Of a stretch of 64,000 nucleotides of DNA, positions 4,306 to 32,145 are shown piece after piece; position 1 is the stretch's first letter; the number at the start of each line of letters is the position of its first letter. The notes below the pieces were generated by a model. That model was not told the origin of the DNA, ran no database searches, and was given only the letters and a program-made list of their open reading frames with translations. A program made the translations under genes and the position numbers. Origin of the DNA: Narcine bancroftii (lineage: Eukaryota); NCBI RefSeq assembly GCF_036971445.1, contig NC_091469.1:102610001-102674000 (forward strand), in the 5' to 3' direction.

Positions 4306-4624
4306 AGAGCAAGATCCCCATTATCTAGCACCTATGGGGATCCTGGATGTCGGTTTTGCGAATTTTCCAATTGACTGAGACTCTTACAATGCCTAACTAA
4401 TTTAGAATACACGGTTTGGAAGACAAAAGACAAAATGTAAAGTAATTTGAAAAAGAAAATCAGTTTTGTATTCTTTAATTATATGAAGTTCACTTTAATC
4501 TGATAATTCCCTTAACTTACAAAAATTAAATTTGAACTCTGGTTGCTGGCGCTGAAACTATTTTGCATTAACTGCTATGCTAACTGTGCTGCCGTCAAAA
4601 TTAACCCCCTTCCCTCGCACTGAC

Positions 4625-6410
4625 AACCCGACTCACCTCAATGCCAGTGTCCCGGTCAGATCCTCAGTGCAACCTGACTCACCTCCATGCCAGTGTCCCG
4701 GTCAGATCCTCAGTGCAACCTGACTCACCTCCATGCCAGTGTCCCGGTCAGACCCTCAGTGCAACCTGACTCACCTCCACGCCATTGTCCAGGTCAGACC
4801 CTCAGTGCAACCTGACTCACCTCCACGCCAGTGTCCTGGTCAGACCCTCAGTGCAACCTGACTCACCTCCACGCCATTGTCCAGGTCAGACCCTAAGTGC
4901 AACCTGACTCACCTCCACACCAGTGTCCCGGTCAGATCCTCAGTGCAACCTGACTCACCTCCATGCCAGTGTCCCGGTCAGACCCTCAGTGCAACCTGAC
5001 TCACCTCCATGCCAGTGTCCCGGTCAGACCCTCAGTGCAACCTGACTCACCTCCACGCCAGTGTCCTGGTCAGACCCTCAGTGCAACCTGACTCACCTCC
5101 ACGCCATTGTCCAGGTCAGACCCTCAGTGCAACCTGACTCACCTCCACGCCAGTGTCCTGGTCAGACCCTCAGTGCAACCTGACTCACCTCCACGCCATT
5201 GTCCAGGTCAGACCCTAAGTGCAACCTGACTCACCTCCACGCCAGTGTCCTGGTCAGACCCTCAGTGCAACCTGACTCACCTCCACGCCATTGTCCAGGT
5301 CAGACCCTCAGTGCAACCTGACTCACCTCCATGCCAGTGTCCCGGTCAGACCCTCAGTGCAACCTGACTCACCTCCACGCCATTGTCCAGGTCAGACCCT
5401 CAGTGCAACCTGACTCACCTCCACGCCAGTGTCCTGGTCAGACCCTCAGTGCAACCTGACTCACCTCCACACCAGTGTCCCGGTCAGACCCTCAGTGCAA
5501 CCTGACTCACCTCCACGCCAGTGTCCTGGTCAGACCCTCAGTGCAACCTGACTCACCTCCACGCCATTGTCCAGGTCAGACCCTCAGTGCAACCTGACTC
5601 ACCTCCACGCCAGTGTCCTGGTCAGATCCTCACTGCAACCCAACTCACCTCCACACCAGTGTCCCGGTCAGACCCTCAGTGCAACCTGACTCACCTCCAC
5701 GCCAGTGTCCCGGTCAGACCCTCAGTGCAACCTGACTCACCTCCATGCCAGTGTCCCGGTCAGACCCTCAGTGCAACCTGACTCACCTCCACGCCAGTGT
5801 CCCGGTCAGACCCTCAATGCAACCCGACTCACCTCAATGCCAGTGTCCCGGTCAGACCCTCAGTGCAACCTGACTCACCTCCACGCCAGTGTCCCGGTCA
5901 GACCCTCAGTGCAACCTGACTCACCTCCATGCCAGTGTCCCGGTCAGACCCTCAGTGCAACCTGACTCACCTCCACGCCAGTGTCCTGGTCAGATCCTCA
6001 CTGCAACCCGACTCACCTCCACGCCAGTGTCCCGGTCAGACCCTCAGTGCAACTCGACTCACCTCCATGCCAGTGTCCCGGTCAGACCCTCAGTGCAACC
6101 TGACTCACCTCCACGCCAGTGTCCTGGTCAGATCCTCACTGCAACCCGACTCATCTCCACGCCAGTGTCCCGGTCAGTCCCTCAGTGTAACTCGACTCAC
6201 CTCCACGCCAGTGTCCCGGTCAGACCCTCAGTGCAACTCGACTCACCTCCATGCCAGTGTCCCGGTCAGACCCTCAGTGCAACCCGACCCACCTCCACGC
6301 CAGTGTCCTGGTCAGGCCCTCAGTGCAACCCGACTCACCTCCACACCAATGTCCAGGACAAACCCTCAGTGCAACCTGACTCACCTCCATGCCAGTGTCC
6401 TGTCAGGCCC
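4625..6410. repeat. 46-bp minisatellite, about 39 copies
   Basis: Unit CCAGTGTCCCGGTCAGACCCTCAGTGCAACCTGACTCACCTCCACG read directly from the sequence. Confidence 0.97.
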
Positions 6411-6869
6411 TTGGCACATCTTCCTTCATGTTCAAAACAGTGTTGCAGTAACTACTACGCTAAACCATGCTGCCGTCATAATGAGTTTACAGATAAAGCC
6501 TTACTAATATACTTAATAATTTACTGAAATAGTTAAGGACTCTAACTAGGCAGGGATAGGGAGACAGTTTGGGAGAGTCATCCCAGCAGCGAGAAGACCA
6601 GCCGGCTCTTCTTCCTGGGCACCACCATTTTATTTAAACACAACTTTATTGAAAATTTATTCAAACAGCTGCTGTGGGGGGGTGGGTGGGGCACGACCAG
6701 ATGCTCCACTGACTGAATGTTTGCTCCCAATGGGTTGTGTGTTGCTTCGGATAACATTTATATTTACAATTTTAAACTTCTATATAAACTTTTATTTAAA
6801 ACATTACTTATTTCCTCTTTATTTTGGCAGTTCTTTGTGTTTCCATTGATGGAGTGCTGGATAATAGGG

Positions 6870-15568: not shown

Positions 15569-15789
15569 CAGTGTAGCCTGGAATGAGTTTCTGTGGATGG
15601 ATCTGGTCTGACACATCAGGTGTACAATTCTCCTCATATTTTGGAAGACACTTATCCAGAGTTTCAGTCATTGGTGACAGAATCGATTGGTCAGCTTTTG
15701 ACTTTTTAGGATCCTTAAGGATATCATGAGTAATCCTTCCGTAAGTCTTGCCAAACTGGAATGGAAATGTCCGGGAGTATCCTCCATAT
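15569..15789 (-). CDS. CIMIP2A: CIMIP2A/FAM166A coding exon 2
   Basis: Acceptor cacccatccag, donor CTG|gtgagt. 221 nt, phase 2 to 1. Encodes YGGYSRTFPFQFGKTYGRITHDILKDP...SILSPM...KLIPGYT, resembling FAM166A GNTYGRTT..LLTDP..SVLSPM. Confidence 0.9.
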
Positions 15790-19229: not shown

Positions 19230-19570
19230 TAGTCACAGCACAATCCTGATCAATCTCATCTGTATCTTTTCTAACTTAATAACATCCTTCCTATAGCTGG
19301 TTGACCAGAATTTCACACAGTACTCCACAAGTGTGGCCTGACCAACAAATTGCATAGCTATTATCATGATGTCCCAACCCAGGTATTCAAATGCCTGCCT
19401 AATGATGGCAAACATGTCGAACACCTTCTTTATCACGGTGCCCACTAATGCCGTCATTTTCAGGGAACTTGTGCCCCAAGGCCCCTCTCTTCTACAAGGC
19501 TCTCTAAGGATCTATCATTTACTGTGTGAGTTCTGCCCCATTTTGATTTAATTCATCACCTTGCATTTGA
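19230..19570 (-). mobile_element. CR1 fragment
   Basis: EYCVKFWSTSYRKDVIKLEKIQMR. Confidence 0.75.
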
Positions 19571-21017
19571 GGTGACACGGAATTTATTTCTTCATTGTTA
19601 GAATGAATAAGGAGTCAGTCCAACATTTGGAGAAGACACCTGTTGCAACCAACTGGTAGCTGTTCTCTTGCCGCTCTTTGTGGGTCTCCAGGCAATCTGG
19701 GCTAAAATGTTAATATTTACACTTTTACAAAGTGTCACAAATACTAGCACCATCACAATAGCCCCATACCTCTTCAATTATCCCTCCTCATAGCCAATAT
19801 CTTCCCCAGAGTTTCAGATGTGAGTCAGGTTTCTCCACTGCCGTAATTCCAACATGATAGGTTTTTTTTAAAGTCACTTGTGATATAACTTTTCTTCTTT
19901 GAAGCCTTAGTGTTGTTGTTCACACTAATCTCTCAAATGCCCCTCCAGTCCAGCTGAATGGACCATAATAGACTAAAAAAAAATCAATGGTGATGGCACT
20001 TAATTTCTCATCACACAATCTCCTTCAACCCCTGCTGCCTTTTAACTTGTCAGGCACATGCAGAGCCATGTTAAAATACAAATTTAATGTTACTCATCTT
20101 CCAACTCAGTTTACGCACTGAACAGTACATCTATCCATGAATAGATATTCAATCACATCCACACACCCTGTAAAAGACCTGAATGAGAATCGCACAAACA
20201 GTATATACTATTGTATAGACTTAAAAGAAGACTCTGGTCTAATGCTTCCTGAAGGAGTAAGTATTGAAAAACAAACCATCTGATAACAAAGTCCCAGTAC
20301 TGAGGCATCAAAGAAAAAGGCAGAGAAAACATTCCACCATTTCTCTCTCAGAAGCATAATGAAAGATAAAAGCAAACCAAAGGAGACACTGAAGGTTGGG
20401 GAGGAGGTTCACCTTAATCTGAGTCAAAGAGGTTTATTTTAAGGAGGAGGCAGAAAGAGAGGAACGTTTCAGAAAGGAATTCCAGAACTCGGGCACCAAA
20501 ACACCTGAGGATTGGAAAGTTGTGAGGAAGTGTAAGAAGAAAGCACAGGAGTTCAGAGATGGAGTGGAATGCGGCCTTGGAGAGGTATAAACTCATGTCA
20601 GGCGATGGAGTCTGTTGGAACATGGAGAATAGGAGAAGTGCTGAGATGAATTTAGTGGGGAATGTAAAGAAGGAGGTCAGCTGAGTGTACACGTTCGCAG
20701 GTAGGGAGGACGCCCCAGGAATCAAATGGCCTGACACATGGGGCAATAGCAGGAAATGTTACTAAGGTGATGGAGAGGAGGGGCAGTTGCTGTTGGTTCT
20801 CCACGTACTTCATCCAGTTATGAGGAAACACTGCAGATGCTAGAAGTCTAGATATAAGTAGAAAATGGGAGGAATAACAGTGTCAGGCAGACTGAAAGGA
20901 ATAACAATATCGTTTCTATAATTCTTGCTCCAGATTCCTGCGTCTGCAGCCTCTTCTGTCTCCATCAAGATTGTTTCTTCAAGACTTGCTTCTTCAAATA
21001 GTTTGATAGCTACTTAC

Positions 21018-21070
21018 CCAGGAATATAATGTGGCTCTGGAGTGAAGAGATGGTGTTTTTTTGTAGTCAT
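21018..21070 (-). CDS. CIMIP2A: CIMIP2A/FAM166A coding exon 1 (start codon)
   Basis: ATG at 21070, encoding MTTKKHHLFTPEPHYIP(G), close to human FAM166A MTTTQKHDLFTPEPHYVPG. Donor GG|gtaagt, phase 2, fits exon 2. Confidence 0.92.
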
Positions 21071-21153
21071 TTTTCAAATGCAGGTATTTTACTAACTCTT
21101 GATAGTTGGGACACTCAGGGGCACAGCCCCTTTCCTACTGTCAGTGTCAAGTA

Positions 21154-21166
21154 GTTACTAAGCAAC
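21154..21166. promoter_or_regulatory. RFX-binding X-box upstream of CIMIP2A
   Basis: GTTACTAAGCAAC (reverse complement GTTGCTTAGTAAC) is an imperfect palindrome matching the GTNRCN(0-3)RGYAAC consensus, 84 bp upstream of the ATG of a ciliary gene. Confidence 0.65.
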
Positions 21167-21181
21167 CAGCTGACAGTGCCC

Positions 21182-22294
21182 ATGACAAAAGCATGGGCAC
21201 CACTGCCAGTCAAGCTAGTCAACAATTTGCTGCTTGATGTCGAAGAACACTGTGCAGGAAAAATGATGGGTTCTTCAATCCCATTCCAGTCCCACTGGCC
21301 AAAAGTAAGTGTAGATAGTCATGGCCATTTTGTCAAAGTAACACCTGTAAACGTGGGTCAGTTTGACCCAAACAATCCAAAATCCCACAAACTAGCCTCT
21401 TGCAAAAAGACTCCCACTCATCCACCCTACCACCATTTCATGAAGGAGAAGTATTTCCCACATGGCAGCCAAGCATTTCTAACCCTTCTTGCTCAGTTCA
21501 AGGCAAAGGCAATAGCACAGTCTGGCCTGGAGTGTGTTGGGACACACATCCCATCCCCAGCAGAGTGGAGAGCTCTGGAAGAACTCCGTCAAGAAACTGA
21601 ACCGGGACCCTCATCAGCAACTGCCAGCAAAGCAGCTGACCCAGCCCAAAGATCTCAGCCAGCCAGCCAGAAAGGCCAAGAGGACACTGCTCAGGAAACT
21701 CAAGAAACAGCAACAGCTCAAGCTTCTGAAGTCCCGAAGGCAGTGACCACTCAAACCCCAGATTACCTTGTGATGCATGATCCAAGATACTTCCTGCGAG
21801 AAACTGGAGGGTGGGCCATCTGCCTAGACACCGCAAAGTCCCCATTACCAGGGTTTCAGCTACAATGTCCATGTGAGATGATAACTTTGACTTATTGTCC
21901 TTGTAAGCTACTGAAGGAACAGGAATTAAGCACAGTTTCAGGACAGGTCCCACCAGATCAGCAGGATGCAGAACCCAATGAACTAGTAGAACAGGCTGAC
22001 ACAGCTCCCACAGGATCAGCAGAGGATACTAACACTGTTCCTGCAGAACCAACAGAGCAAACTAATGAAGTTACCATTGAACCAGCAGAACAGATTGGCA
22101 CAGCTCCCACTGAACCACCAGAGGAGGCTGACACAGTTCCCTCTGAACCAGCAGAGGAGGCTGACACAGTTCCCGCTGAACCAGCAGAGGTGGTTGACAC
22201 AGGTCCCCCTGAACCAGCAGAGGCAGTAAATACAACTCCTCCTGAACCAGCAGAAGTCTTGGAAACATCTGCTGGTGAACTAGCAGAGAACTGA
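21182..22294 (+). CDS. Uncharacterised ORF (370 aa from first ATG) with C-terminal 11-aa acidic tandem repeats
   Basis: Uninterrupted 1.1-kb ORF with no recognisable TE motifs. Diverged 33-bp repeats keep the frame. A stronger Kozak context (AAAATGATGG) is at 21263. Confidence 0.5.
   Translation: MTKAWAPLPVKLVNNLLLDVEEHCAGKMMGSSIPFQSHWPKVSVDSHGHFVKVTPVNVGQFDPNNPKSHKLASCKKTPTHPPYHHFMKEKYFPHGSQAFLTLLAQFKAKAIAQSGLECVGTHIPSPAEWRALEELRQETEPGPSSATASKAADPAQRSQPASQKGQEDTAQETQETATAQASEVPKAVTTQTPDYLVMHDPRYFLRETGGWAICLDTAKSPLPGFQLQCPCEMITLTYCPCKLLKEQELSTVSGQVPPDQQDAEPNELVEQADTAPTGSAEDTNTVPAEPTEQTNEVTIEPAEQIGTAPTEPPEEADTVPSEPAEEADTVPAEPAEVVDTGPPEPAEAVNTTPPEPAEVLETSAGELAEN
21968..22291 (+). repeat. 33-bp coding-like tandem repeat, about 10 degenerate units (TVPAEPAEEAD-like)
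   Basis: Unit GAACCAGCAGAGGAGGCTGACACAGTTCCCGCT and variants. Confidence 0.85.
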
Positions 22295-22485
22295 TCATGA
22301 TCTCCAGGTAAACAAGTTCAGTGTTCCTTTTATTGTCACATAATGATACATTGAAATGTAACATACATGATATACTTCAACTTTTGTTTACCATAAGGCA
22401 GACAAAGCATCATAATTAGTAATGGCCCAGACCCCTTACAGTTCGAGAGAAAGAGAAGCAAATGAGAGATCCTTCAAAATCATTA

Positions 22486-22816
22486 GCCCTTTTTCCACTG
22501 GCATCCCAGTTATTTGACAGTTCAGTGTCACGGGATAGGATGTGTCATTTCCACTGGGACACCCTTAACTGCGACACTAATTGCTTTTCCACTGAACGCA
22601 CTCATCCCCGAGGATCGGAGTGTTCTACCTTCGACTGGAAACAGGTGAGTTTCTGCAGTCCCTTTTCCACTGGTTTTATCAACACTCCAACATCAGCAAA
22701 CACCGAGGATATGAGTAGGGATAGAGACAGTTAATCCCCAGCGTGAGATGACAGTGCTCCTTTTCCACTGGACCCTGTTTCAGTAAAATTCCAGTTAATT
22801 CCTGGGACAGGGTGCC
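22486..22816. mobile_element. Second copy of the Harbinger-like MITE, right end truncated, inside a minus-strand LINE 3' remnant
   Basis: TTA|GCCCTTTTTCCACTGGCATCCCAGTTA, colinear with 3759-4126. The host remnant begins at TTTATTGTCA near 22328. Confidence 0.7.
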
Positions 22817-23067
22817 TCCAGCAATCCTGCAGCCCCGCAGCCACACAGAGTCCTGTTTGATTAATCAGCAACCCAAGATCCAGATCTAAACCTTAAATCA
22901 AGAAGTTATCAGTGTCCGAGGCCCTTTGGAAGCCCTTCTTCCCCTCAGCATCCTCTTGAATCCTAACTCTGATGCCTGGTTCTCTGAGCCAGTGTCAAGC
23001 GGCCTGCAGCTCATGTGAGTCCCTTAGCCACTCAGCCCCTTGCTGCTCCGCTGCCGTGGTCACCTTC

Positions 23068-24129
23068 TGTGGTGCGCTGTTAGCCAGAATCAGACACACA
23101 CAAAGATAAAGGCTTTAATCCACAAAGACTTCCAATGAGCCAGGCTGGCTGTGGCTGCAGCAACTCTGAGTGAGGCCTTGGGAGGCCGGTGCAGGCTTAT
23201 ATCCCGGAGGGTGATTGACACCCGACCGGGTGGGGCTTGATCCATTCAGGCCGAGTGATTGACAGCGGCCAGGTGTTGTCCTGTCCTCTTATACTCCTGC
23301 AGGTACAGAGGTTGACCCCTGCAGTAGGCCGGTGGTGTACCACCACATTCACCCACTTCATTAAAATTGTCCCGGAGGGGGGGCGGCAGTAACAAGGAAT
23401 CGCACCCACTATGTACATACAATATTTAAAGGTTGAGACGACTCGGCGGCCGCCGGGGTCTCTGTAACCGTCGTAGGGCTGGCTCCTCGTCACTGGTCAG
23501 AGGGGAAGTGGGGGGGGGTGGTGGCAGGGGTGTGTGGGGCTGGTGTGGTGCTGCGCAGAGGGGTGGCCAGGGGGGCTGGGGTCGACGTATGCAGGTCGTA
23601 TTGGATGGGTGGGGGGGGGGGGTGGGTTTGTCTCCTAAGTCTGAAGCGGGCCCCTGGTGGTCAAGGAGGCCCTGCGTGCCCCATAGCTGTCTGTGGACAG
23701 GGATGTATGCCCGGTCAGCGTCGTCTGGGTTGGAGGGTGGCGTGGTGTGGTGGGTGCTCCTGCTGGCACCAGGTCCCTGGTTGAGACAGTGTCTTCCCTG
23801 CCACTGCCAAACCTAATGTAAGCGTAGTTACGGTTTGCATGAAGGAGGAAAACCTGCTCTACCAGGGCTTCGGCCTTGTGGGTCCGTACATGCTTTCGCA
23901 GAAGCACCGGTCCCAGGGACGTGAGCCACGCTGGGAGTGATATTCCAGTCGCCGACCTCCTGGGGAATGAGAATGAGGGGTCTCGTTGGTAGCCGTGCTC
24001 AGCAGTAACCGGTTGGGGCTTGATGCATTCAGGCTGACTGATTGACAGCCGGCTAGATGTTGTCCTGTCCCCTTACACTCCTGCAGGTACAGAGGTTGCC
24101 CCTGCAGTAGGCCGGTGTGTACCTCCACA
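23068..24129 (-). mobile_element. Internally deleted Gypsy element (one full LTR 23068-23347, integrase C-terminus, partial LTR about 24010-24129)
   Basis: TGTGGTG...CACCACA LTR termini, a 5-bp TSD CCTTC (23063-23067 and 24130-24134), and integrase tail LLRKHVR...LLHANRNYAYIRF..GREDTVSTRDL. Confidence 0.85.
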
Positions 24130-25699
24130 CCTTCCCTGTCTTCTCTAATTCTCCCTCTCAATGGGGGTGTTATTCCCATTTCTGGTGCTCTGCACTGGTC
24201 CACTGTTCCCCCGCAGTCTGCAATCCCTTGTGGTCTTGCTGAGCATAAACCCTACAGTTGCTGGGTTTTACTTACAAACACCTTCAACTCCATTAACAGG
24301 CCATTAAAAGCCTGTATGGAGCTGCCAGCATTGTGTCTCCACTCTCTGCCCTTCCGGATCTGCACTGGCAGGAGTGCTGCTGTTACACCTGCTCTGCCAG
24401 CACTCCCATTTTTTTGTTAAAAAGTGCCATTCTGAAGAATTATTTATCTATTCAGGTAGTTTAGATAGTTGTGGTATTGAATCTAACTCACCTTGAGTAG
24501 CCTTTTCCTGGTTAGAATATGAGTGTTCTCATCCCTGACCTGACACACAATAGTCCTGCTTCTGTATGGCTACAGTTCACCATGAAAAATAACACAACTC
24601 CCATGTGTTGTTCTTCCACACCTTTATAATATCACCTACACTCAATCAGTAGACAGTGGCTGTTCTTTTGCAAAGGGGAACTTGGTCAAATCCCCTTTCC
24701 AAGTCAGAGCTTACATACCATTCCAGTCATGGAAGATGATCAGTCAGGGTCGATCACAGTTCATCGAGGAGAAAAAGATACTTCCCATTGGAAAGGTCTC
24801 ACAACACATTGGGTGCAGTTAGACTGTTGGTGAGTGCAACCTCACACCATGTTGAATGGCTTTATGACATCACATGGAAGCAACTTTGGCATCATGAAAT
24901 GAATGTGACATACCACCTCATCTCCAGGGGTTGATGTCCCAACCAGTAAACAACCTGTGTAGTCAAGGTGATTGGGTTTCCTAATTATGTCATCCTGCCC
25001 CAAAAGTCCCCCTCCATCCACAGAACGTCCACTGATCCCTCTGACAGGATACGGTTTGATCCCCTTCTCGTTTACTATGTGATGGCCATCCAATCAATAA
25101 CCTAAAGTACTGTGGAGATGTGAGTTGCCTCCTGCAACAGACCTCAGTGGGCAGGAATTCCACACCATGCTCCATAGTTTGGGGCCATAGTCACACTCTA
25201 GGTAATAAAGAGCCAATCTGGTGTGATGCAATGGGCAGTATGGATTCTTTCACAGTTGCCACTGTCTCTGAGAGAGAGCAGAGCCATGTTGCAGGCCAGG
25301 AGCTGAGATTCCCTGCACCTGTGCATGTCCCGCGATCCCTTCTGACCTGCGATGTTGACATTGGCTGCTGTTTCTCAGAATGGTCAATTTTATTTGAAAA
25401 GGTTTTTTGGCGTTCCTATATTCACAGCTGAACCTCAGTCTCAGTACCATATTACTCATGTCCTCTAGATGCCTTTTTTGTGTCCAGCATAGAAGCACAC
25501 TTCCTTAAATAAATTCAGTGACTTGGCCTCCATTGCCCCTGTGGGGGAGAATTCCACCATGCTCTGAATGAGGAAGCTTTCCTTATCCAAGATCTGAATG
25601 TTTCATCCCATATTCTGAAGTTGTGATCCCTTTTGCTGGACTCCCCAACCCAAGGGGAATATCATCCCACCAGGATTGAGTCATGCCTACTTGGAAATG

Positions 25700-25975
25700 G
25701 GCCATTCAGGCCACCACATCTGTTCTAACCATCATCCATCCATTTACATTAATCCTACATAAATCCCATTTGATTGCAACCACATTCTCAACGCCTACCA
25801 TTATCCTCCGCACTAGGAGCTCTTTGCAGTGGCCAATTAACCTACTAAACCACATGTTTATTTCACCCATGAAGTTACAGTGAGAATATGCAAACACCCA
25901 TAGACGGCATGCAAGATCAGGTTTGAATCCAGGTTTCTGGCACTGTGAGACAGCAGCTTTACCAGCTGCACCAGT
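25700..25975 (-). mobile_element. V-SINE/HE1-like SINE
   Basis: tRNA-like head (GCTGCTGTCTCACAGTGCCAGAAACCTGGATTCAAACC on minus) and a degenerate V-core. Confidence 0.65.
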
Positions 25976-26142
25976 GCGCAGTCTTAATAAAGAAGAATGA
26001 TGGGGATAATCTGTGAGTCATATATTTCCTTTAGGATTCTGCACCCAGAGGGGTTATAGGTAATTGACAAATATCTCTGCCATGGAGAATGGCCTCTGTG
26101 AGAGGGAGAGAGGAGTGCATTTTTGCACAGTACAATGACTTA

Positions 26143-28420
26143 CCATATATACTCATGTAAAAATCGATACCATGTAAAAGTCCACGCCCTATTTTTGGCC
26201 CAAAAATCTGGTATTTTCCATGAGGCGTGGAAAAGTCAACCCCCTTTTTTCTCAGCTGCCCGCCCACTGGAGCTCCCATTGCCTTGACCGTGGACTCGCA
26301 CTTAAGCCCTAACAGCCCACCTCACGGAAATCCTGATGCCCCGACTGCAGACTTTCACCTAGGCCCCAGCCGCCCATCCATCCCAAGCTCCTGACCATGG
26401 ACTCTCACCTAGGCCTCGGCCACCTGCCCATCCAAGCTCTTGATGCCTCAAACCCGACTTCCACCTGGTCCTAACCACCCACCCATCTGTGCTTCCAACG
26501 CCTGAATGGTACAGGTACTTACTGTGGTCAAAATTAGTATTCATTTAAGAACATTAAAAGTAAAAGATTAGTGAGAGATAAAATTGGACCCCTTGTAGAT
26601 AGCGAGGGTAGGCTGAGTGAGAAGTCTGAGGAAATGGGGGAAATTTTGAATGATTTCTTTGCCTCGGTATTCACTAGGGAAAAAAATGTTGAACCAGTTG
26701 AAGTAAAGAAAAATAGTGGGGAGGTCATGAAGCATATAAGGATAACCGAGGAGGTAGTGATGGCTGTGTTAAAAAAGATAAAGGTGGATAAATCTCCCGA
26801 ACTGGACAAAATATTCCCTAGGACACTCAGGGAGGCTAGTGGACAGTTAGTGGGGCCATTAACAGAGATATTTAGGATGTCACTGGCTACGGGGGTGGTA
26901 TCAAAGGATTGGAGGGTGGCGCATGTGGTTCCTCTGTTTAAGAAAGGGTCCAAATGCAAACCTGGGAATTATAGGCCTGTAAGTCTGACATCTGTGGTGG
27001 GCAAGTTGATGGAAAGTGTTCTGAGGGATGCTATTTACAAATTTTTGGAGGTACAGGGATTGATAGGGAGTAATCAGCATGGTTTTGTCAGGGGTAGATC
27101 ATGCTTGACAAACCTGATTGAGTTCTTCGAGGGGGTTACAAAAAAGGTTGATGAAAGGAAAGCTGTGGATGTTGTCTATTTGGACTTTAGTAAAGCTTTT
27201 GACAAAGTTCTCCACAGGAGGTTAGGAAAAAAGGTGGAGGCATTAGGTATAAATAAGGAGGTAGTGAAATGGATTCAGCAGTGGTTGGATGGGAGGTGTC
27301 AGATTGTTTGTCCAATTGGAGGCCGGTGACTAGTGGAGTTCCTCAGGGTTCGGTCCTGGGTCCACTATTATTTGTTATATATATTAACGATCTGGATGTA
27401 GGGGTGGAGAATTGGATAAGCAAGTTTGCGGATGACACAAAAATTGGTGGTGTTGTGGACAGTGAGGTAGATTACCGTAGATTAAAAGGTGATTTAGGAA
27501 GGCTGGAGGTGTGGGCTGAGAAATGGCTGATAGAATTTAATACAGATAAATGTGAGGTGCTACATTTTGGAAAGGCAAATTTAAATAGGTCATATACATT
27601 GAATGGTAGACAATTGAGGAGTGCAGAGCAACAAAGGGATTTAGGAGTTATGGTAAATAGTACCCTCAAGGCTGATACTCAGGTAGATGGTGTGGTGAAG
27701 AAGGCATTTGGAATGTTGGCCTTCATAAATCGGAGTATTAAATTCAAGAGTAGGGAGGTTATGATGAAATTGTACAAGGCATTGGTGAGGCCAAATTTGG
27801 AGTACTGTGTACAGTTTTGGTCACCAAATTATAGGAAAGATATAAACAAAATAGAGAGAGTGCAGAGAAGGTTCACAAGAATGTTGACAGGATTTCAGGG
27901 TCTGAGTTACAGGGAAAGGTTGTGCAGACTGGGGCTTTTTTCTCTGGAGCGTAGAAGATTGAGGGGGGACTTGATAGAGGTGTTTAAGATTTTAAAAGGG
28001 ACAGACAGAGTAAATGTGGATAGGCTTTTTCAATTAAGAAAGGGGGAGATTCAAACTAGAGGACATGGTTTAAGATTGAAGGGGGAAAATTATAAGGGGA
28101 ACATGAGGGGAAATTTCTTTACGCAGAGGGTGGTGGGGACATGGAATGAGCTTCCGGCAGACGTGGTCGAGGCGGGATCATTGGTTACATTTAAGGAAAG
28201 ACTGGATCGTTACATGGATAGGAGGGGACTAGAGGGGTATGGACCGGGTGCTGGTCAGTGGGACTAGGAGGGTGGGGATTTGCTACGGCATGAACTAGTA
28301 GGGCCGAACTGGCCTGTTCTGTGCTGTAAGTGGTTATATGGTTATATGTAATTGTCTACCCCCTAAATTTTATCCTTAAAATTCGTCCATGAAAGTTGAC
28401 TATTACACAGGTAAAAATAG
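26143..28420. mobile_element. pogo/Tc2-like MITE split by a CR1 insertion
   Basis: TA-flanked degenerate TIRs CCATATATACTCATGTAAAAATCGA / TTGACTATTACACAGGTAAAAATAG. Confidence 0.55.
26536..28349 (+). mobile_element. Young 5'-truncated CR1 LINE (RT nearly intact; one frameshifting deletion near 27302)
   Basis: ORFs 26571-27329 and 27269-28267 carry NYRPVSLTS, GVPQGSVLGP and KFADDTK. 3' tail GGTTATATGGTTATATG. Confidence 0.97.
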
Positions 28421-28894
28421 TACTTTTCTATCTCTACTTTTGCTTTTATACGTTGTATGAGCAGATTAGGAACTTATTTGCTTCCTTTGTCACATCTCCC
28501 AGCTGGGAGAGATGGGGTTCGAGGTTCCTGCTAATTGTGGGACACCCTGAGTCTCTGCAATTTACTGCTATTGTGCCCATCTATTTCTTTTGCTGCATCA
28601 TGTCTCAGATAGAGTTAATTCCGGCCAACAGGGTCTTGCAGTGAGTGAGAAGCAGTATTTTGTTCTCAGGATGCTTCATGGGACAGTGCTTCAATAGTGT
28701 GATTACAGTTATTAAGTAACAGTGGTAGCCAGAAATGCTTAAGAAACTAACCCTGAGCCTTCTGGATGTTCCATGTGCAATATATTGCTCAAAGAAACTG
28801 TCTCGAAGATAATGTATGAACCTGTTTTCAAGGTTAATTTGCCAATTTCATTTGTTTAATTAATATGAAGACTAAACCTGTCCATGATTATCAC

Positions 28895-29405
28895 AGTAAA
28901 AACATAAAAATGCTGGAGGAACTTAGTAGGTCTCTCAGCATCCATGTTTTGGGCCTGAGCCCTTCATTAAGGTATGAACAAAAAGCCGACAGGCACCTGA
29001 ATAAAAAGGCTGGGGGAGGAGGAGCCCAGGCCAACAGGCAAAAGGTAGTAATTGGATATGGATAGGAGGACAGTTGATCGGGGGAGGAGATGGCCCTGAG
29101 AATGCAGAGCTAGAGACAGAGGCAAAGGGAGAGAGAGAGAGTGTCAGGGAGGGGGCTAATGAAAACCAGAGAAGTCGATGTTAATGCCATCTGGTTGGAG
29201 GGTGCACAGATTGAATATGAGGTGTTGTTTTTCCAGTTTGCATGTGGTCTCGGTTTGGCAATGATGTTGGCATGGGAAAGGAACGGGGAATTGAAATGGG
29301 TTACTACAGGGAGATCCTCGCTATTGTGGCGAACAGAGCCAAGGTGCTCAGCAAAGTATTTCCCTGTCTGCATCCAGTCTCTCCAATATAGAGGAGACCA
29401 CAATA
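28895..29405 (-). mobile_element. Penelope-like element 3' fragment (GIY-YIG endonuclease relic)
   Basis: FAEHLGSVRHNSEDLPVVTHFNS. Terminal segment carries a hammerhead-like relic at about 28946-28972. Confidence 0.8.
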
Positions 29406-29654
29406 GGAGTTCTCAACGAAGTCTTCAATGAGGCTTACTGGGCACTCACGCCAATGACTTCTTTCTTAATTCTACACAAATAACTCCAGAAGCTCCCAAG
29501 ATCATATCTCACCAGTGTATTGCTCTCATCCTTCATCAGCAGTTACCAACCTCTGTCTCTCCTCCAAAATGTTAATTACTCAGGGATATTCTGTTCTTAG
29601 TCTCAGTTACACAATTGTGTCATCTAAAAGGCCAAAAGCTCAAAGCTCAGTCCC

Positions 29655-29935
29655 AGATTTAGGGCAGAGATGAGGAAAAATAGTTTTTCCCAGAGAGTAG
29701 TGAATGTTTGGAATTCTCTATCCAGGGAAGTGGTTGAGGCTGCTTCATTAAACATATTTAAAATTCGGGTTAGATACATCTTTATATGATAGAGGAATTA
29801 GGGGATATGGGGAGAAGGCAGGTAGGTGGAGTTAGGTCATAAATTAGATCAGCCATGATCTTATTGAATGGCGGAGCAGGCTCGATGGGCCATTTTTGGC
29901 CTACTCCTGTTCCTACTTCCTATGTTCCTATGTTT
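29655..29935 (+). mobile_element. CR1 3' end
   Basis: FFSQRVVNVWNSL-like coding end and a (TTCCTATG)n-like tail. Confidence 0.8.
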
Positions 29936-30689
29936 CTACTTGTGCCAGCAATCTGCTGATATGTTATGAATCATGTGTAACAGATGTCTTGGCATCATAT
30001 TCCTTATTTTGGCTCCATTTATAGTTATACTATCACATTTCTCCACTCTGGTAGCCACCATGTACTTTCTAATCTTGCTCATTGGAAACATCTCAACTAC
30101 TATTTTGTTTAAAACTCAGTCTTCATCTTAGTTGATTTGGTGAAAGACTAGACCCAGTCCAATGCAGATGAAACCCATCACAATGGAACAGCTCTCCCTT
30201 CCTGTGTAAGTCCAAGTACAATAGTAAGTTCTGAATGTAAATCTGCAAATGATTTTGTGTCGAACTGGCCAGTTTGGATATATGAATATCTACCTGTAAC
30301 GTTAACTTTGTCTTTCTCTCTCTCTCTCTCTCTTATTTAATTTCAGTGACTGTTGTGTTCAGCATTTATCTATTTCTCCCTAGTTCTCCCTCCATTTATT
30401 TCTTAAGGAAGCTTAACTGTGAAAAATAAACGCTTATCACCCACACTTCCAACATCAATCCGTAACATTCAATCTCCCCACATTTCCATCCATCACAGAA
30501 ACACTATCTTTCTCTCCAACTCTGTCCTTTTCTTTCAATTTTGTAACTTTTCCAGGTTCTGAATCAAGATCAATGATGTGAAATGTAAATTCTGCTTTTC
30601 CTCCAAAGATTATGCCTGATGTCTGCAAATTTCCAACATTTTTTGTTTTTATTTCACATTTCCAACATCTGCATTTGTTTATGTTTTTG

Positions 30690-31050
30690 CCCATTAACCC
30701 ATGTACCCAATGATAGACAGTGTCTGACCTTCTGACCCATGTACTCAGTGATGGACAGTGTCAGACCCACTGGCCCATTAACCCATGTACCCAGTGATGG
30801 TCAGTGTCAGACCCACTGGCCCATTATTCCATGTACCCAGTGATAGTCAGTATCTGACTCACTGACCCATTAACCCATGTACCCAGTGATAGATGGTCTG
30901 ACCCACTGGCCCATTAACCCATGTACCCAGTGATACACAGTATCTGACTCACTGACCCTTTAACCCATGCACCCAGTGATAGATGGTGTCTGACCCACTG
31001 GCCTGTTGATCCAAAAACCCAATGAAAGAACAGTGTCTGATACTTTGACT
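30690..31050. repeat. Degenerate minisatellite of about 46 bp, about 8 copies
   Basis: Unit CCATTAACCCATGTACCCAGTGATGGTCAGTGTCAGACCCACTGGC. Confidence 0.9.
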
Positions 31051-32145
31051 GTTTGACCCATTGGGAAATTGACATCTGCAACACTTTACCTTTCAATTTC
31101 TACAAGGACAATAATTATCTGCTTGATCTCAGCAAACCCAGCCATCGTATTGCACTTCAGTAATGCTCTGGTACATTTCCTCCTGCTTGCAACAACAAAG
31201 AAGTAAAGAACAGCAGACATTGGTAAGTTCCAGTACTCTAACTAGCTGTATGGGGTCGGCATAATCACCTCCTCAAAATAATAATGTGGAGACGTGTTAC
31301 TTAAGATAACAGACAGCGTGGCAGACAAATGTATGGTTGTGGTCATCAGGAACTCAGCAGAGTCCAACCTATAATTAAGTTATAGAAGAGATTTAAAACT
31401 CCACATGTGAAGTAGCAGAAAACCTTAATATAGAATCTGCACAAACATGTAGCAAAGACTCAAGTTTAATATTTTATATAGTTTAAAAAAAGCAGACTGG
31501 CTCTTGTTTGAATTGTCGTTGTCATGGGTATCCCTCGGGTCCAGCATGATGGTCTTCATTCCATTGATCTGTTTATGGGCTCTCAAGTCCAATCTTGGAA
31601 AGTGGCCCACAAAACAAAGACTGTGTGTATATTTGTTTAACGTGTACTTAATGTTTCACTCTAAGAAGCACATGATACTTCACAAATCAACCAATTCCAA
31701 TGGCATGGAAACCATGATGATCGGAGCTGATGGATTTGTTGCAGCCTTCGTCCACCTTTACAGCCATTGAGTTCAAAATAACTTCATCCACTTGTTCCAC
31801 CATTGTTGTTTGTCAGGGGCCTTACCACCATGGATGGCCCTACCATGAACATAGCTCCTGACAGCATTGCTCCCAGGATCTCAGGACTACACAAGCTTCT
31901 CCATCACGACAAAGTGACAATCTACAGAAAAGTCTGAAATGTAGTAGATTTCTGGAATGAGTTATTGCTTTAATATATCCTAACAAGAGTATTCTCCACA
32001 TTAGACATATTGTGTAACCACAATTTAATAATGCATGAATGTTAGTTGAGCAGCGGGAATAGGGGTTGATAGGACTTGGTCTGAGATGGAACCATCACTG
32101 CCATGGCCAGCATAATGGTCCGCAGCCAACTGAAGGTTTACTGAG

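What the first reader, a model, noticed from the sequence alone, without database searches (positions are those of the whole stretch)
21070..22294. Orphan 370-aa ORF head-to-head with CIMIP2A across a shared RFX X-box
Seen: the CIMIP2A ATG (21070, minus) and the first ATG of a 1.1-kb plus-strand ORF (21182; stronger Met-Met at 21263) are only 112 bp apart, with a palindromic X-box (21154-21166) between them. The ORF has no TE motifs. It has an ordered-looking N-terminus, a Cys cluster (CLD..CPC..YCPC) and about 10 diverged 11-aa Glu/Pro/Ala/Thr repeats with no frameshift or stop, which suggests selection on coding. Established: RFX factors drive ciliary and sperm genes, and in human STPG3 lies divergent from FAM166A (from memory), though I see no convincing STPG3 similarity. 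Inference: an undescribed lineage-specific ciliary or sperm protein co-regulated from a bidirectional promoter.
Basis: partly seen in the sequence, partly recalled or inferred. Interest (0 to 1): 0.7.

Follow-up and report, generated by a model that had tools for sequence, protein, structure and literature searches.

The report
Shark-and-ray gene interleaved with CIMIP2A
This is a real, spliced, single-copy gene with relatives found only in sharks and rays; it sits back-to-back with, and partly inside, the sperm-tail gene CIMIP2A, and it likely makes a floppy structural sperm protein whose job has not been tested.

Summary
The ORF is a real gene, but neither a species orphan nor simply head-to-head. 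It is single-copy and spliced on the plus strand in run X1 (GT..AG joint 22307>31133). It has orthologues in bamboo shark and two catsharks, all starting at Met28 (21263), so the protein is likely 343 aa. In bamboo shark its locus number is next to FAM166A's on one contig. Conserved blocks are 54-85% identical; the acidic repeat tail has 11-aa units here and mostly 10-aa units in sharks. No relative outside elasmobranchs, Pfam family, PDB match or confident fold was found. The X-box is real and unique in the window by the strictest pattern. New twist: the four CIMIP2A 5' joints seen in X1 come from other exons, two of them beyond the ORF (24492, 24719), skipping the ATG exon. The ORF therefore also lies antisense inside a CIMIP2A intron, facing a second, convergent promoter. 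Tissue, start sites and RFX binding are untested. Best reading: an elasmobranch-restricted, likely spermatid-expressed disordered structural protein. Moderate interest.

The parts
21263..22294 (+). Likely true coding sequence, 343 aa, all in one exon, starting at Met-Met 21263/21266
   Evidence: All 4 homologous sequences begin at this position; purine at -3 for both ATGs
21182..21262 (+). In-frame 27-codon upstream extension, not conserved, weak start context
   Evidence: Absent from P0002, P0027, P0028, P0029; C at -3
21263..21322 (+). Conserved N-terminal block, residues 28-47
   Evidence: 17, 15 and 16 of 20 identical to P0002, P0027, P0028
21410..21583 (+). Conserved core, residues 77-134, with two low-confidence helices
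   Evidence: 38, 35 and 35 of 58 identical; helices 97-112 and 126-139, 10-residue mean pLDDT 37-51; residues 28-134 have pI 9.2
21854..21931 (+). Cys block CPCE-x5-[YC]CPCK followed by a helix, residues 225-250
   Evidence: 14, 16 and 16 of 26 identical; alignment
21932..22291 (+). Acidic Pro/Glu/Thr repeat tail; 11-aa unit here, mostly a 10-aa unit in sharks (read by eye)
   Evidence: 33-bp period at 21974-22254; net charge -31, pI 4.05; shark tails
21154..21166 (.). Palindromic RFX X-box-like site, 84 bp from the CIMIP2A ATG and 97 bp from Met28
   Evidence: Only site in the window for the both-half pattern, 0.25 expected per 64 kb; distances; binding untested
21090..22307 (+). Transcribed first exon of the ORF gene (5' end not mapped); splice donor 13 nt after the stop
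   Evidence: X1 contigs 21090-21899 and 21931-22241, joint with GT..AG ends
22308..31132 (+). 8,825-nt intron in the 3' UTR of the ORF gene; it contains the distal CIMIP2A exon on the other strand
   Evidence: Joint 22304/31130 cut +3, GT..AG, depth 1564; loose end mapped
31133..31222 (+). Second, non-coding exon; 3' extent unresolved (donor-like site at 31223, AGTAAA at 31202)
   Evidence: Start shown; end inferred from sequence only
21193..21237 (+). Out-of-frame 14-codon upstream ORF in strong context, present only if the transcript starts upstream of it
21018..21070 (-). CIMIP2A-like proximal first coding exon (full-length isoforms)
   Evidence: Matches residues 1-18 of P0010, P0015, P0016; GT donor
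15569..15789 (-). CIMIP2A-like exon 2; shared acceptor at 15789; contains Met58 at 15671
24719..25201 (-). Distal, single-copy, non-coding CIMIP2A upstream exon (alternative donor at 24492); splices across the ORF to exon 2
   Evidence: Joints 15789/24719 (depth 3261) and 15789/24492 (26), CT..AC; 18 ATGs in 483 nt, none reaching the CIMIP2 frame; single copy
19560..20544 (-). Two further non-coding exons (19560-19666 and 19770-20544) joined to CIMIP2A exon 2
   Evidence: Joints at depth 210 and 13.5; no in-frame ATG

Best explanation
This is a conserved, single-copy, spliced protein-coding gene found so far only in sharks and rays, which likely makes a 343-residue, largely disordered structural protein of developing sperm and is likely switched on by RFX through the X-box at the CIMIP2A proximal promoter. 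Shown: open frame, orthologues, plus-strand splicing, overlap with a longer CIMIP2A transcript. Inferred mechanism: RFX bound at 21154-21166 would drive transcription both ways in spermatids, giving full-length CIMIP2A on the minus strand and this gene on the plus strand. The short conserved basic blocks (residues 28-134) would fold only on binding a partner in the tail, the paired CPC motifs would cross-link or bind zinc, and the acidic repeat tail would act as a spacer in which charge and length matter more than sequence. A second CIMIP2A promoter near 24.8-25.2 kb fires back across the gene and yields transcripts lacking the ATG exon, which could only encode a form starting at Met58. My odds per step: real coding gene 0.95; mainly male germ-line 0.7; X-box functional 0.6; structural part of the sperm tail 0.4.
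For: Coding under selection: 15-17 of 20, 35-38 of 58 and 14-16 of 26 identities in three blocks against 6-8 of 23 in the linker between the first two; frame intact in 4 species. Adjacency kept: chiPu_0018792 (orthologue) and chiPu_0018793 (FAM166A-like) are consecutive loci, each on a 297,687-bp contig. RNA: X1 holds 0.83 of the sampled words and carries GT..AG and CT..AC joints over 4-9 kb introns; both genes are present as spliced RNA in this run. X-box unique and above chance; functional human X-boxes lie mostly within 500 bp either side of the start site (PMC5838959, passages). In mammals CIMIP2A/CIMIP2B is listed as a sperm-versus-epithelial paralogue pair (PMC11779644, passages), and mouse Fam166a is down in Rfx2-knockout testis at P30, logFC -1.30, p 3.1e-6 (PMC4498915, supplement rows). 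No hydrophobic segment (best 19-residue hydropathy 0.93) and pLDDT 35 fit a soluble disordered protein. RefSeq isoform X4 (P0017, two accessions) starts at Met58, as the distal exons predict.
Against: The tissue of X1 is not on record, and it is one run of one study. Contigs cannot give start sites, strand or level; strand is read from splice dinucleotides. All four CIMIP2A 5' joints listed in X1 bypass the proximal exon, so shared-promoter co-expression is not demonstrated. Mouse Fam166a is marked 'no' for an RFX2 ChIP peak. Nothing ties the protein to the flagellum: no PDB match among solved axoneme chains, no Pfam motif, no similarity to CIMIP2 (probability 0.2%). No orthologue was retrieved from several elasmobranchs whose CIMIP2A was retrieved (Hemitrygon, Mobula, three skates, Heptranchias, Stegostoma, Rhincodon, C. 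plagiosum; versus 10, 45); the search is lossy (one search missed P0027), but patchy loss is not excluded. No dN/dS was computed, as no orthologous DNA was held.
Confidence: 0.5

Rival explanations
1. A real elasmobranch protein, but not a sperm-tail part: it acts elsewhere in germ cells (head, manchette, cytoplasm) or in another ciliated tissue, and shares only a promoter region with CIMIP2A.
For: Tissue unknown; no axonemal motif or PDB match; two-way promoter activity is pervasive in mouse germ cells (PMC10760527, passages), so adjacency need not mean shared function.
Against: The adjacency to FAM166A/CIMIP2A is kept between a ray and a bamboo shark, and an X-box lies between the starts.
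Confidence: 0.3
2. The locus matters mainly through transcription: the plus-strand gene and the distal CIMIP2A promoter interfere with each other and with the proximal promoter, in a LUTI-like switch that turns off full-length CIMIP2A; the protein is secondary.
For: The distal exon is upstream, single-copy, holds up to 18 ATGs with none in frame, and its transcript crosses the proximal promoter. The C. punctatum RefSeq CIMIP2A model also has a non-homologous N-terminus joined at the exon-2 boundary (P0023).
Against: Block-wise protein conservation shows selection on the protein. A LUTI as described holds the entire ORF (PMC9754628, passages); this transcript skips the first coding exon. Both RNAs are found in one bulk run and may come from different cells.
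Confidence: 0.1
3. It is a highly diverged STPG3, which in human lies on the opposite strand next to FAM166A (recalled).
For: The neighbourhood matches the recalled human 9q34 block: beta-tubulin tail-to-tail with CIMIP2A, and ALAD, UAP1-like, SAPCD2 and ENTPD family hits within 200 kb. No SHIPPO-like gene was seen in the 170 kb read beside NELFB on C13, so an STPG3 orthologue is unaccounted for. Stpg3 is testis-enriched in mouse and human (PMC7401030, passages).
Against: No SHIPPO repeat by Pfam or motif scan in 4 of 4 sequences; the coding sequence is a single exon; a whole-library HMM search found no bony-vertebrate match to the N-terminal part; NELFB is on another contig. No STPG3 sequence was fetched, so no direct comparison was made.
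Confidence: 0.07
4. It is a transposon or viral ORF, or a chance open frame held open by the repeat.
For: Single-exon coding sequence in a repeat-rich region.
Against: 1 match in the 3.3-Gb genome by DNA; by protein only itself below E 0.5; 0 of 35 viral and 0 of 404 metagenome candidates confirmed; conserved outside the repeat in three shark species.
Confidence: 0.02

Closest known systems
Uncharacterised elasmobranch proteins chiPu_0018792 (GCC20186.1), LOC119955398 (XP_038637393.1), XP_072343870.1, scyTo_0023290 (GCB81483.1)
   Same: Same family: same start, same three conserved blocks, same acidic Pro/Glu tail; the bamboo shark one is numbered next to FAM166A-like.
   Different: The ray protein has an 11-aa tail unit against mostly 10 aa, a longer middle linker and fewer Ser/Thr-Pro sites (6 against 14-16).
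STPG3 (sperm-tail PG-rich repeat containing 3)
   Same: Recalled position next to FAM166A on the opposite strand; testis-enriched (PMC7401030).
   Different: No SHIPPO repeat, single coding exon, NELFB not adjacent.
CIMIP2A/FAM166A and other axonemal microtubule inner proteins
   Same: Likely shared promoter region; disordered with short conserved blocks, as recalled for such proteins when alone.
   Different: No sequence or profile relation; long acidic tail.
RFX X-box target genes and germ-cell bidirectional promoters
   Same: Consensus palindrome between two divergent starts; both phenomena are described (PMC5838959, PMC4498915, PMC10760527).
   Different: Here a second, convergent promoter makes the two genes interleave, each with a first exon inside an intron of the other.
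LUTI (long undecoded transcript isoform) regulation
   Same: Upstream exon with many out-of-frame ATGs whose transcript crosses the proximal promoter.
   Different: The long isoform lacks the first coding exon instead of holding the entire ORF; repression is untested (for the definition).

Membership tests
STPG / SHIPPO-repeat proteins | SHIPPO (PF07004) repeats | tested here: not met
   No Pfam hit at E<=1 for the whole ORF or E<=10 for 4 of 4 N-terminal parts; recalled motif absent in 4 of 4 proteins
STPG / SHIPPO-repeat proteins | Position between CIMIP2A and NELFB (human order recalled) | tested here: not met
   Next to CIMIP2A, but NELFB lies on contig C13; next Pfam-identified downstream gene is UAP1-like (150 of 1511 ORFs scanned)
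STPG / SHIPPO-repeat proteins | Direct sequence similarity to STPG3 | not tested
   No STPG3 sequence was returned by any search
CIMIP2/FAM166 | Profile similarity to CIMIP2 proteins | tested here: not met
   hhalign probability 0.2%, E 0.36 against 9 chondrichthyan CIMIP2A-like proteins; no PF10629 hit
RFX target gene | X-box consensus | tested here: met
   21154-21166 matches all 3 recalled patterns; expected 0.25-1.55 per 64 kb by pattern
RFX target gene | X-box within about 500 bp of the start site | tested here: inconclusive
   The X1 contig begins at 21090 and spans the site, but contigs cannot show a start
RFX target gene | RFX binding, and conservation of the site in orthologous promoters | not testable with these tools
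   No ChIP data and no shark DNA were available (searches returned no loci)
Bidirectional gene pair | Divergent starts less than 1 kb apart | tested here: met
   Coding starts 193 bp apart; RefSeq isoforms X1-X3 use the proximal exon
Bidirectional gene pair | Both transcripts start from the shared promoter in the same cells | tested here: inconclusive
   The 4 CIMIP2A 5' joints in X1 come from other exons; contigs show presence, not absence
Transposon or viral ORF | Multiple copies or mobile-element domains | tested here: not met
LUTI | Upstream start with out-of-frame AUGs | tested here: met
   the number of ATGs in the real leader depends on the unmapped start
LUTI | Long isoform contains the entire ORF | tested here: not met
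   The joints skip the ATG exon; first in-frame ATG is Met58
LUTI | Repression of the proximal start | not testable with these tools
   Needs stage-resolved start-site data
Taxonomically restricted gene | Homologues only within one clade | tested here: met
   2 of 9 hits among 1.84 billion representatives score below 1e-10, both elasmobranch; the other 7 match the repeat tail only. 3 of 716 candidates, all elasmobranch. Limited by search sensitivity.

The most novel reading that the evidence does not exclude
The protein is a building block of the paired helical longitudinal columns that make elasmobranch sperm corkscrew, and the locus is a two-state switch: the X-box first drives full-length CIMIP2A, then a convergent distal promoter converts CIMIP2A to a truncated or untranslated form while the column protein is made from the opposite strand.
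Probability: 0.12. Interest if true: 0.75.

Novelty: new member of a known kind. Interest (0 to 1): 0.45.

Why it matters
Elasmobranch sperm tails carry two accessory columns wound round the axoneme (PMC11856307, passages), and a review places the first structures at doublets 3 and 8 in cartilaginous fish (PMC11276731, passages). I saw no protein named for these columns in the passages read. A clade-restricted, conserved, disordered protein beside a sperm axoneme gene is a concrete candidate, and it can be looked up at once as XP_038637393.1 in the published catshark testis proteome (cited in PMC11173109; not held). The interleaved promoters also show that CIMIP2A output can be changed by promoter choice. 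If neither holds, it is one more uncharacterised, likely testis-expressed lineage gene, which is ordinary.

Tried and rejected
No RNA holder listed as RNA on record; I treat X1 as RNA because of its splice joints. X2 and X3 gave next to no cover of the ORF or of CIMIP2A exon 2; this is not counted as evidence of tissue restriction. No joint from the proximal donor (21018) to 15789 appears among the 8 joints or the 15 of 62 shown; contigs show presence only, so this is not proof that the exon is unused. The 3' end of the plus-strand transcript was not resolved: nothing listed beyond 31159 at 99% likeness, so whether a second 3' UTR intron exposes it to nonsense-mediated decay is open; the one shown joint is 13 nt after the stop, inside the recalled 50-55 nt safe zone. 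ESM Atlas: no feature hit and best TM 0.36 and 0.27. AlphaFold model too poor for a fold search, so none was run. PDB profile searches empty. The Pfam Mitofilin hit (15.4 bits, cut-off 27.4) was rejected as compositional. P0003-P0009 match only the repeat tail. Two weak own-genome hits (E 0.58, 0.94) were not followed. The antisense ORF 21498-22028 has no Pfam hit and is taken as a shadow frame. A CRE-like 8-mer at 24865 is one of 6 in the window and was not counted. Viral and metagenome scans found no locus, so no dN/dS and no X-box conservation test. No complex prediction was sent, since adjacency was the only reason for one. Literature: FAM166A with RFX2, 0 papers; LOC119955398, 0 papers; listings only. 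The catshark proteome paper and its supplements, which may bear directly on translation, were not held. Earlier scan findings: none in 3 look-ups.

Full report
Observation. The 370-codon plus-strand ORF at 21182-22294 is present; no ATG ORF of 250 aa or more appeared in 20 of 20 simulated 64-kb sequences. On the minus strand, 21070-21018 encodes the first 18 residues of RefSeq CIMIP2A-like proteins labelled Narcine bancroftii. The palindrome at 21154-21166 is the only site in the window for the strictest of three recalled X-box patterns, with 0.25 expected per 64 kb; the loosest pattern count was 3 sites against 1.2 expected. A 33-bp repeat covers 21974-22254.

It is a conserved gene. It is single-copy by DNA (1 match) and by protein (only itself below E 0.5). 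Homologues were found in Chiloscyllium punctatum (39% over 89% of residues 1-250) and in Scyliorhinus torazame and S. canicula. All four sequences begin at the Met-Met at 21263, so the likely product is 343 aa. Identity to P0002, P0027 and P0028 comes in blocks: 17, 15, 16 of 20 (residues 28-47); 6, 8, 7 of 23 (linker); 38, 35, 35 of 58 (core); 14, 16, 16 of 26 (Cys block); about 35% in the tail. This pattern across the shark-ray split (recalled as over 200 million years) indicates selection on the protein; dN/dS was not computed. The bamboo shark orthologue chiPu_0018792 and FAM166A-like chiPu_0018793 are consecutive loci, each on a 297,687-bp contig; orientation there was not seen. The window's own protein is held by NCBI and UniRef, so it is annotated, though its name is withheld.

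It has no detectable relatives outside elasmobranchs. An HMM search of 1.84 billion representatives gave 9 hits: the query, the bamboo shark protein, and 7 that match only the repeat tail. Pfam, PDB, ESM Atlas, viral and metagenome searches gave nothing usable. The word-based search is lossy (one search missed P0027), so the lack of hits in other rays and sharks whose CIMIP2A was found is unresolved. AlphaFold gives mean pLDDT 35.4 with four weak helices. The protein has a basic N-terminal part (pI 9.2), a CPC-CPC block, an acidic tail (net -31) and no hydrophobic segment.

Transcription. One run, X1, holds the stretch; its tissue and library are not on record. Contigs cover 21090-21899 and 21931-22241 with no mismatch, and a GT..AG joint links 22307 to 31133, which fixes the plus strand and puts an 8.8-kb intron 13 nt after the stop. 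Of the 8 joints, four are CT..AC joints into the CIMIP2A exon-2 acceptor at 15789, from 24719 (depth 3261), 19560 (210), 24492 (26) and 19770 (13.5); depth is only a rough figure, and the other three joints lie in repeats. The two distal joints bridge the ORF, the X-box and the ATG exon. None of the four upstream exons supplies an in-frame ATG; the first is Met58, where RefSeq isoform X4 starts. The distal exon is single-copy. So the ORF is head-to-head with the proximal CIMIP2A exon, lies antisense in the first intron of the distal isoform, and holds the distal exon in its own intron.

Neighbourhood. Two beta-tubulin genes lie tail-to-tail with CIMIP2A, and ALAD, UAP1-like, SAPCD2 and ENTPD family hits lie within 200 kb (the 150 longest of 1511 non-repeat ORFs were scanned). 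This matches the human 9q34 region as I recall it and favours CIMIP2A over CIMIP2B, which exon 2 alone does not separate. NELFB is on a separate 799-kb contig, and no SHIPPO-repeat gene was seen near either place (78 of 140 listed ORFs scanned).

How it likely works. RFX at the X-box would drive both genes in spermatids. Support is indirect: X-boxes cluster within 500 bp of human start sites (PMC5838959, passages); CIMIP2A/2B is a sperm-versus-epithelial pair in mammals (PMC11779644, passages); mouse Fam166a falls in Rfx2-knockout testis but is not a ChIP target (PMC4498915, two supplement rows). The protein would bind a partner through its short basic blocks, cross-link or bind zinc through the Cys block, and use the acidic tail as a spacer. 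All of that is inference. I give 0.5 to this reading, 0.3 to a non-tail role, 0.1 to a mainly regulatory LUTI-like role, 0.07 to a diverged STPG3 and 0.02 to a mobile or chance ORF.

Comparison and novelty. It fails membership tests for STPG/SHIPPO, CIMIP2 and mobile elements, and meets those for a taxonomically restricted gene. Two-way promoters are common in germ cells (PMC10760527, passages), and many testis genes, Stpg3 among them, are dispensable in mouse (PMC7401030, passages). I found no paper naming the catshark gene in the library searched. It is a new, uncharacterised protein family of a familiar kind. What lifts it above routine is the interleaved two-promoter layout and its candidacy for the elasmobranch sperm columns (PMC11856307 and PMC11276731, passages). 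Interest 0.45.

Noticed in passing
window 24492-25201 (-), 19560-20544 (-): Four non-coding upstream exons join CIMIP2A exon 2 in X1; they would give a protein lacking the first 57 residues, including the first IPGY-type repeat.
   Followed up: yes
P0023 and P0018: The C. punctatum RefSeq CIMIP2A model has a non-homologous N-terminus joined at the exon-2 boundary, and the Mobula model has an insertion at the same boundary, hinting at variable 5' splicing in other species.
   Followed up: no
window 31133-31228 (+): The second exon of the ORF gene has a donor-like site at 31223; a further intron would put the stop more than 55 nt upstream of a junction.
   Followed up: partly
L043:6146-7210 and L044:8666-9748 (+): Two tandem beta-tubulin genes with open last exons (355 and 361 codons) just beyond the CIMIP2A 3' end.
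   Followed up: partly
G000:C13:32325-59322: NELFB lies near the end of a 799-kb contig, away from the TUBB-CIMIP2A block on C1; rearrangement or unplaced scaffold not resolved.
   Followed up: partly
window 4624-6411: 46-bp tandem array, 38.9 copies, 93% matches, in a CIMIP2A intron; a related-looking 46-bp array lies at 30735-31040, just before the ORF gene's second exon.
   Followed up: no
window 26538-28267 (+): LINE-like reverse transcriptase fragment in two frames (recognised by eye) inside the ORF gene's intron, with very high contig depth in all three runs.
   Followed up: no
L047:6263-6973 (+): ORF near the start of contig C13 matching Pfam LED repeat above its cut-off (65.7 bits).
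   Followed up: no
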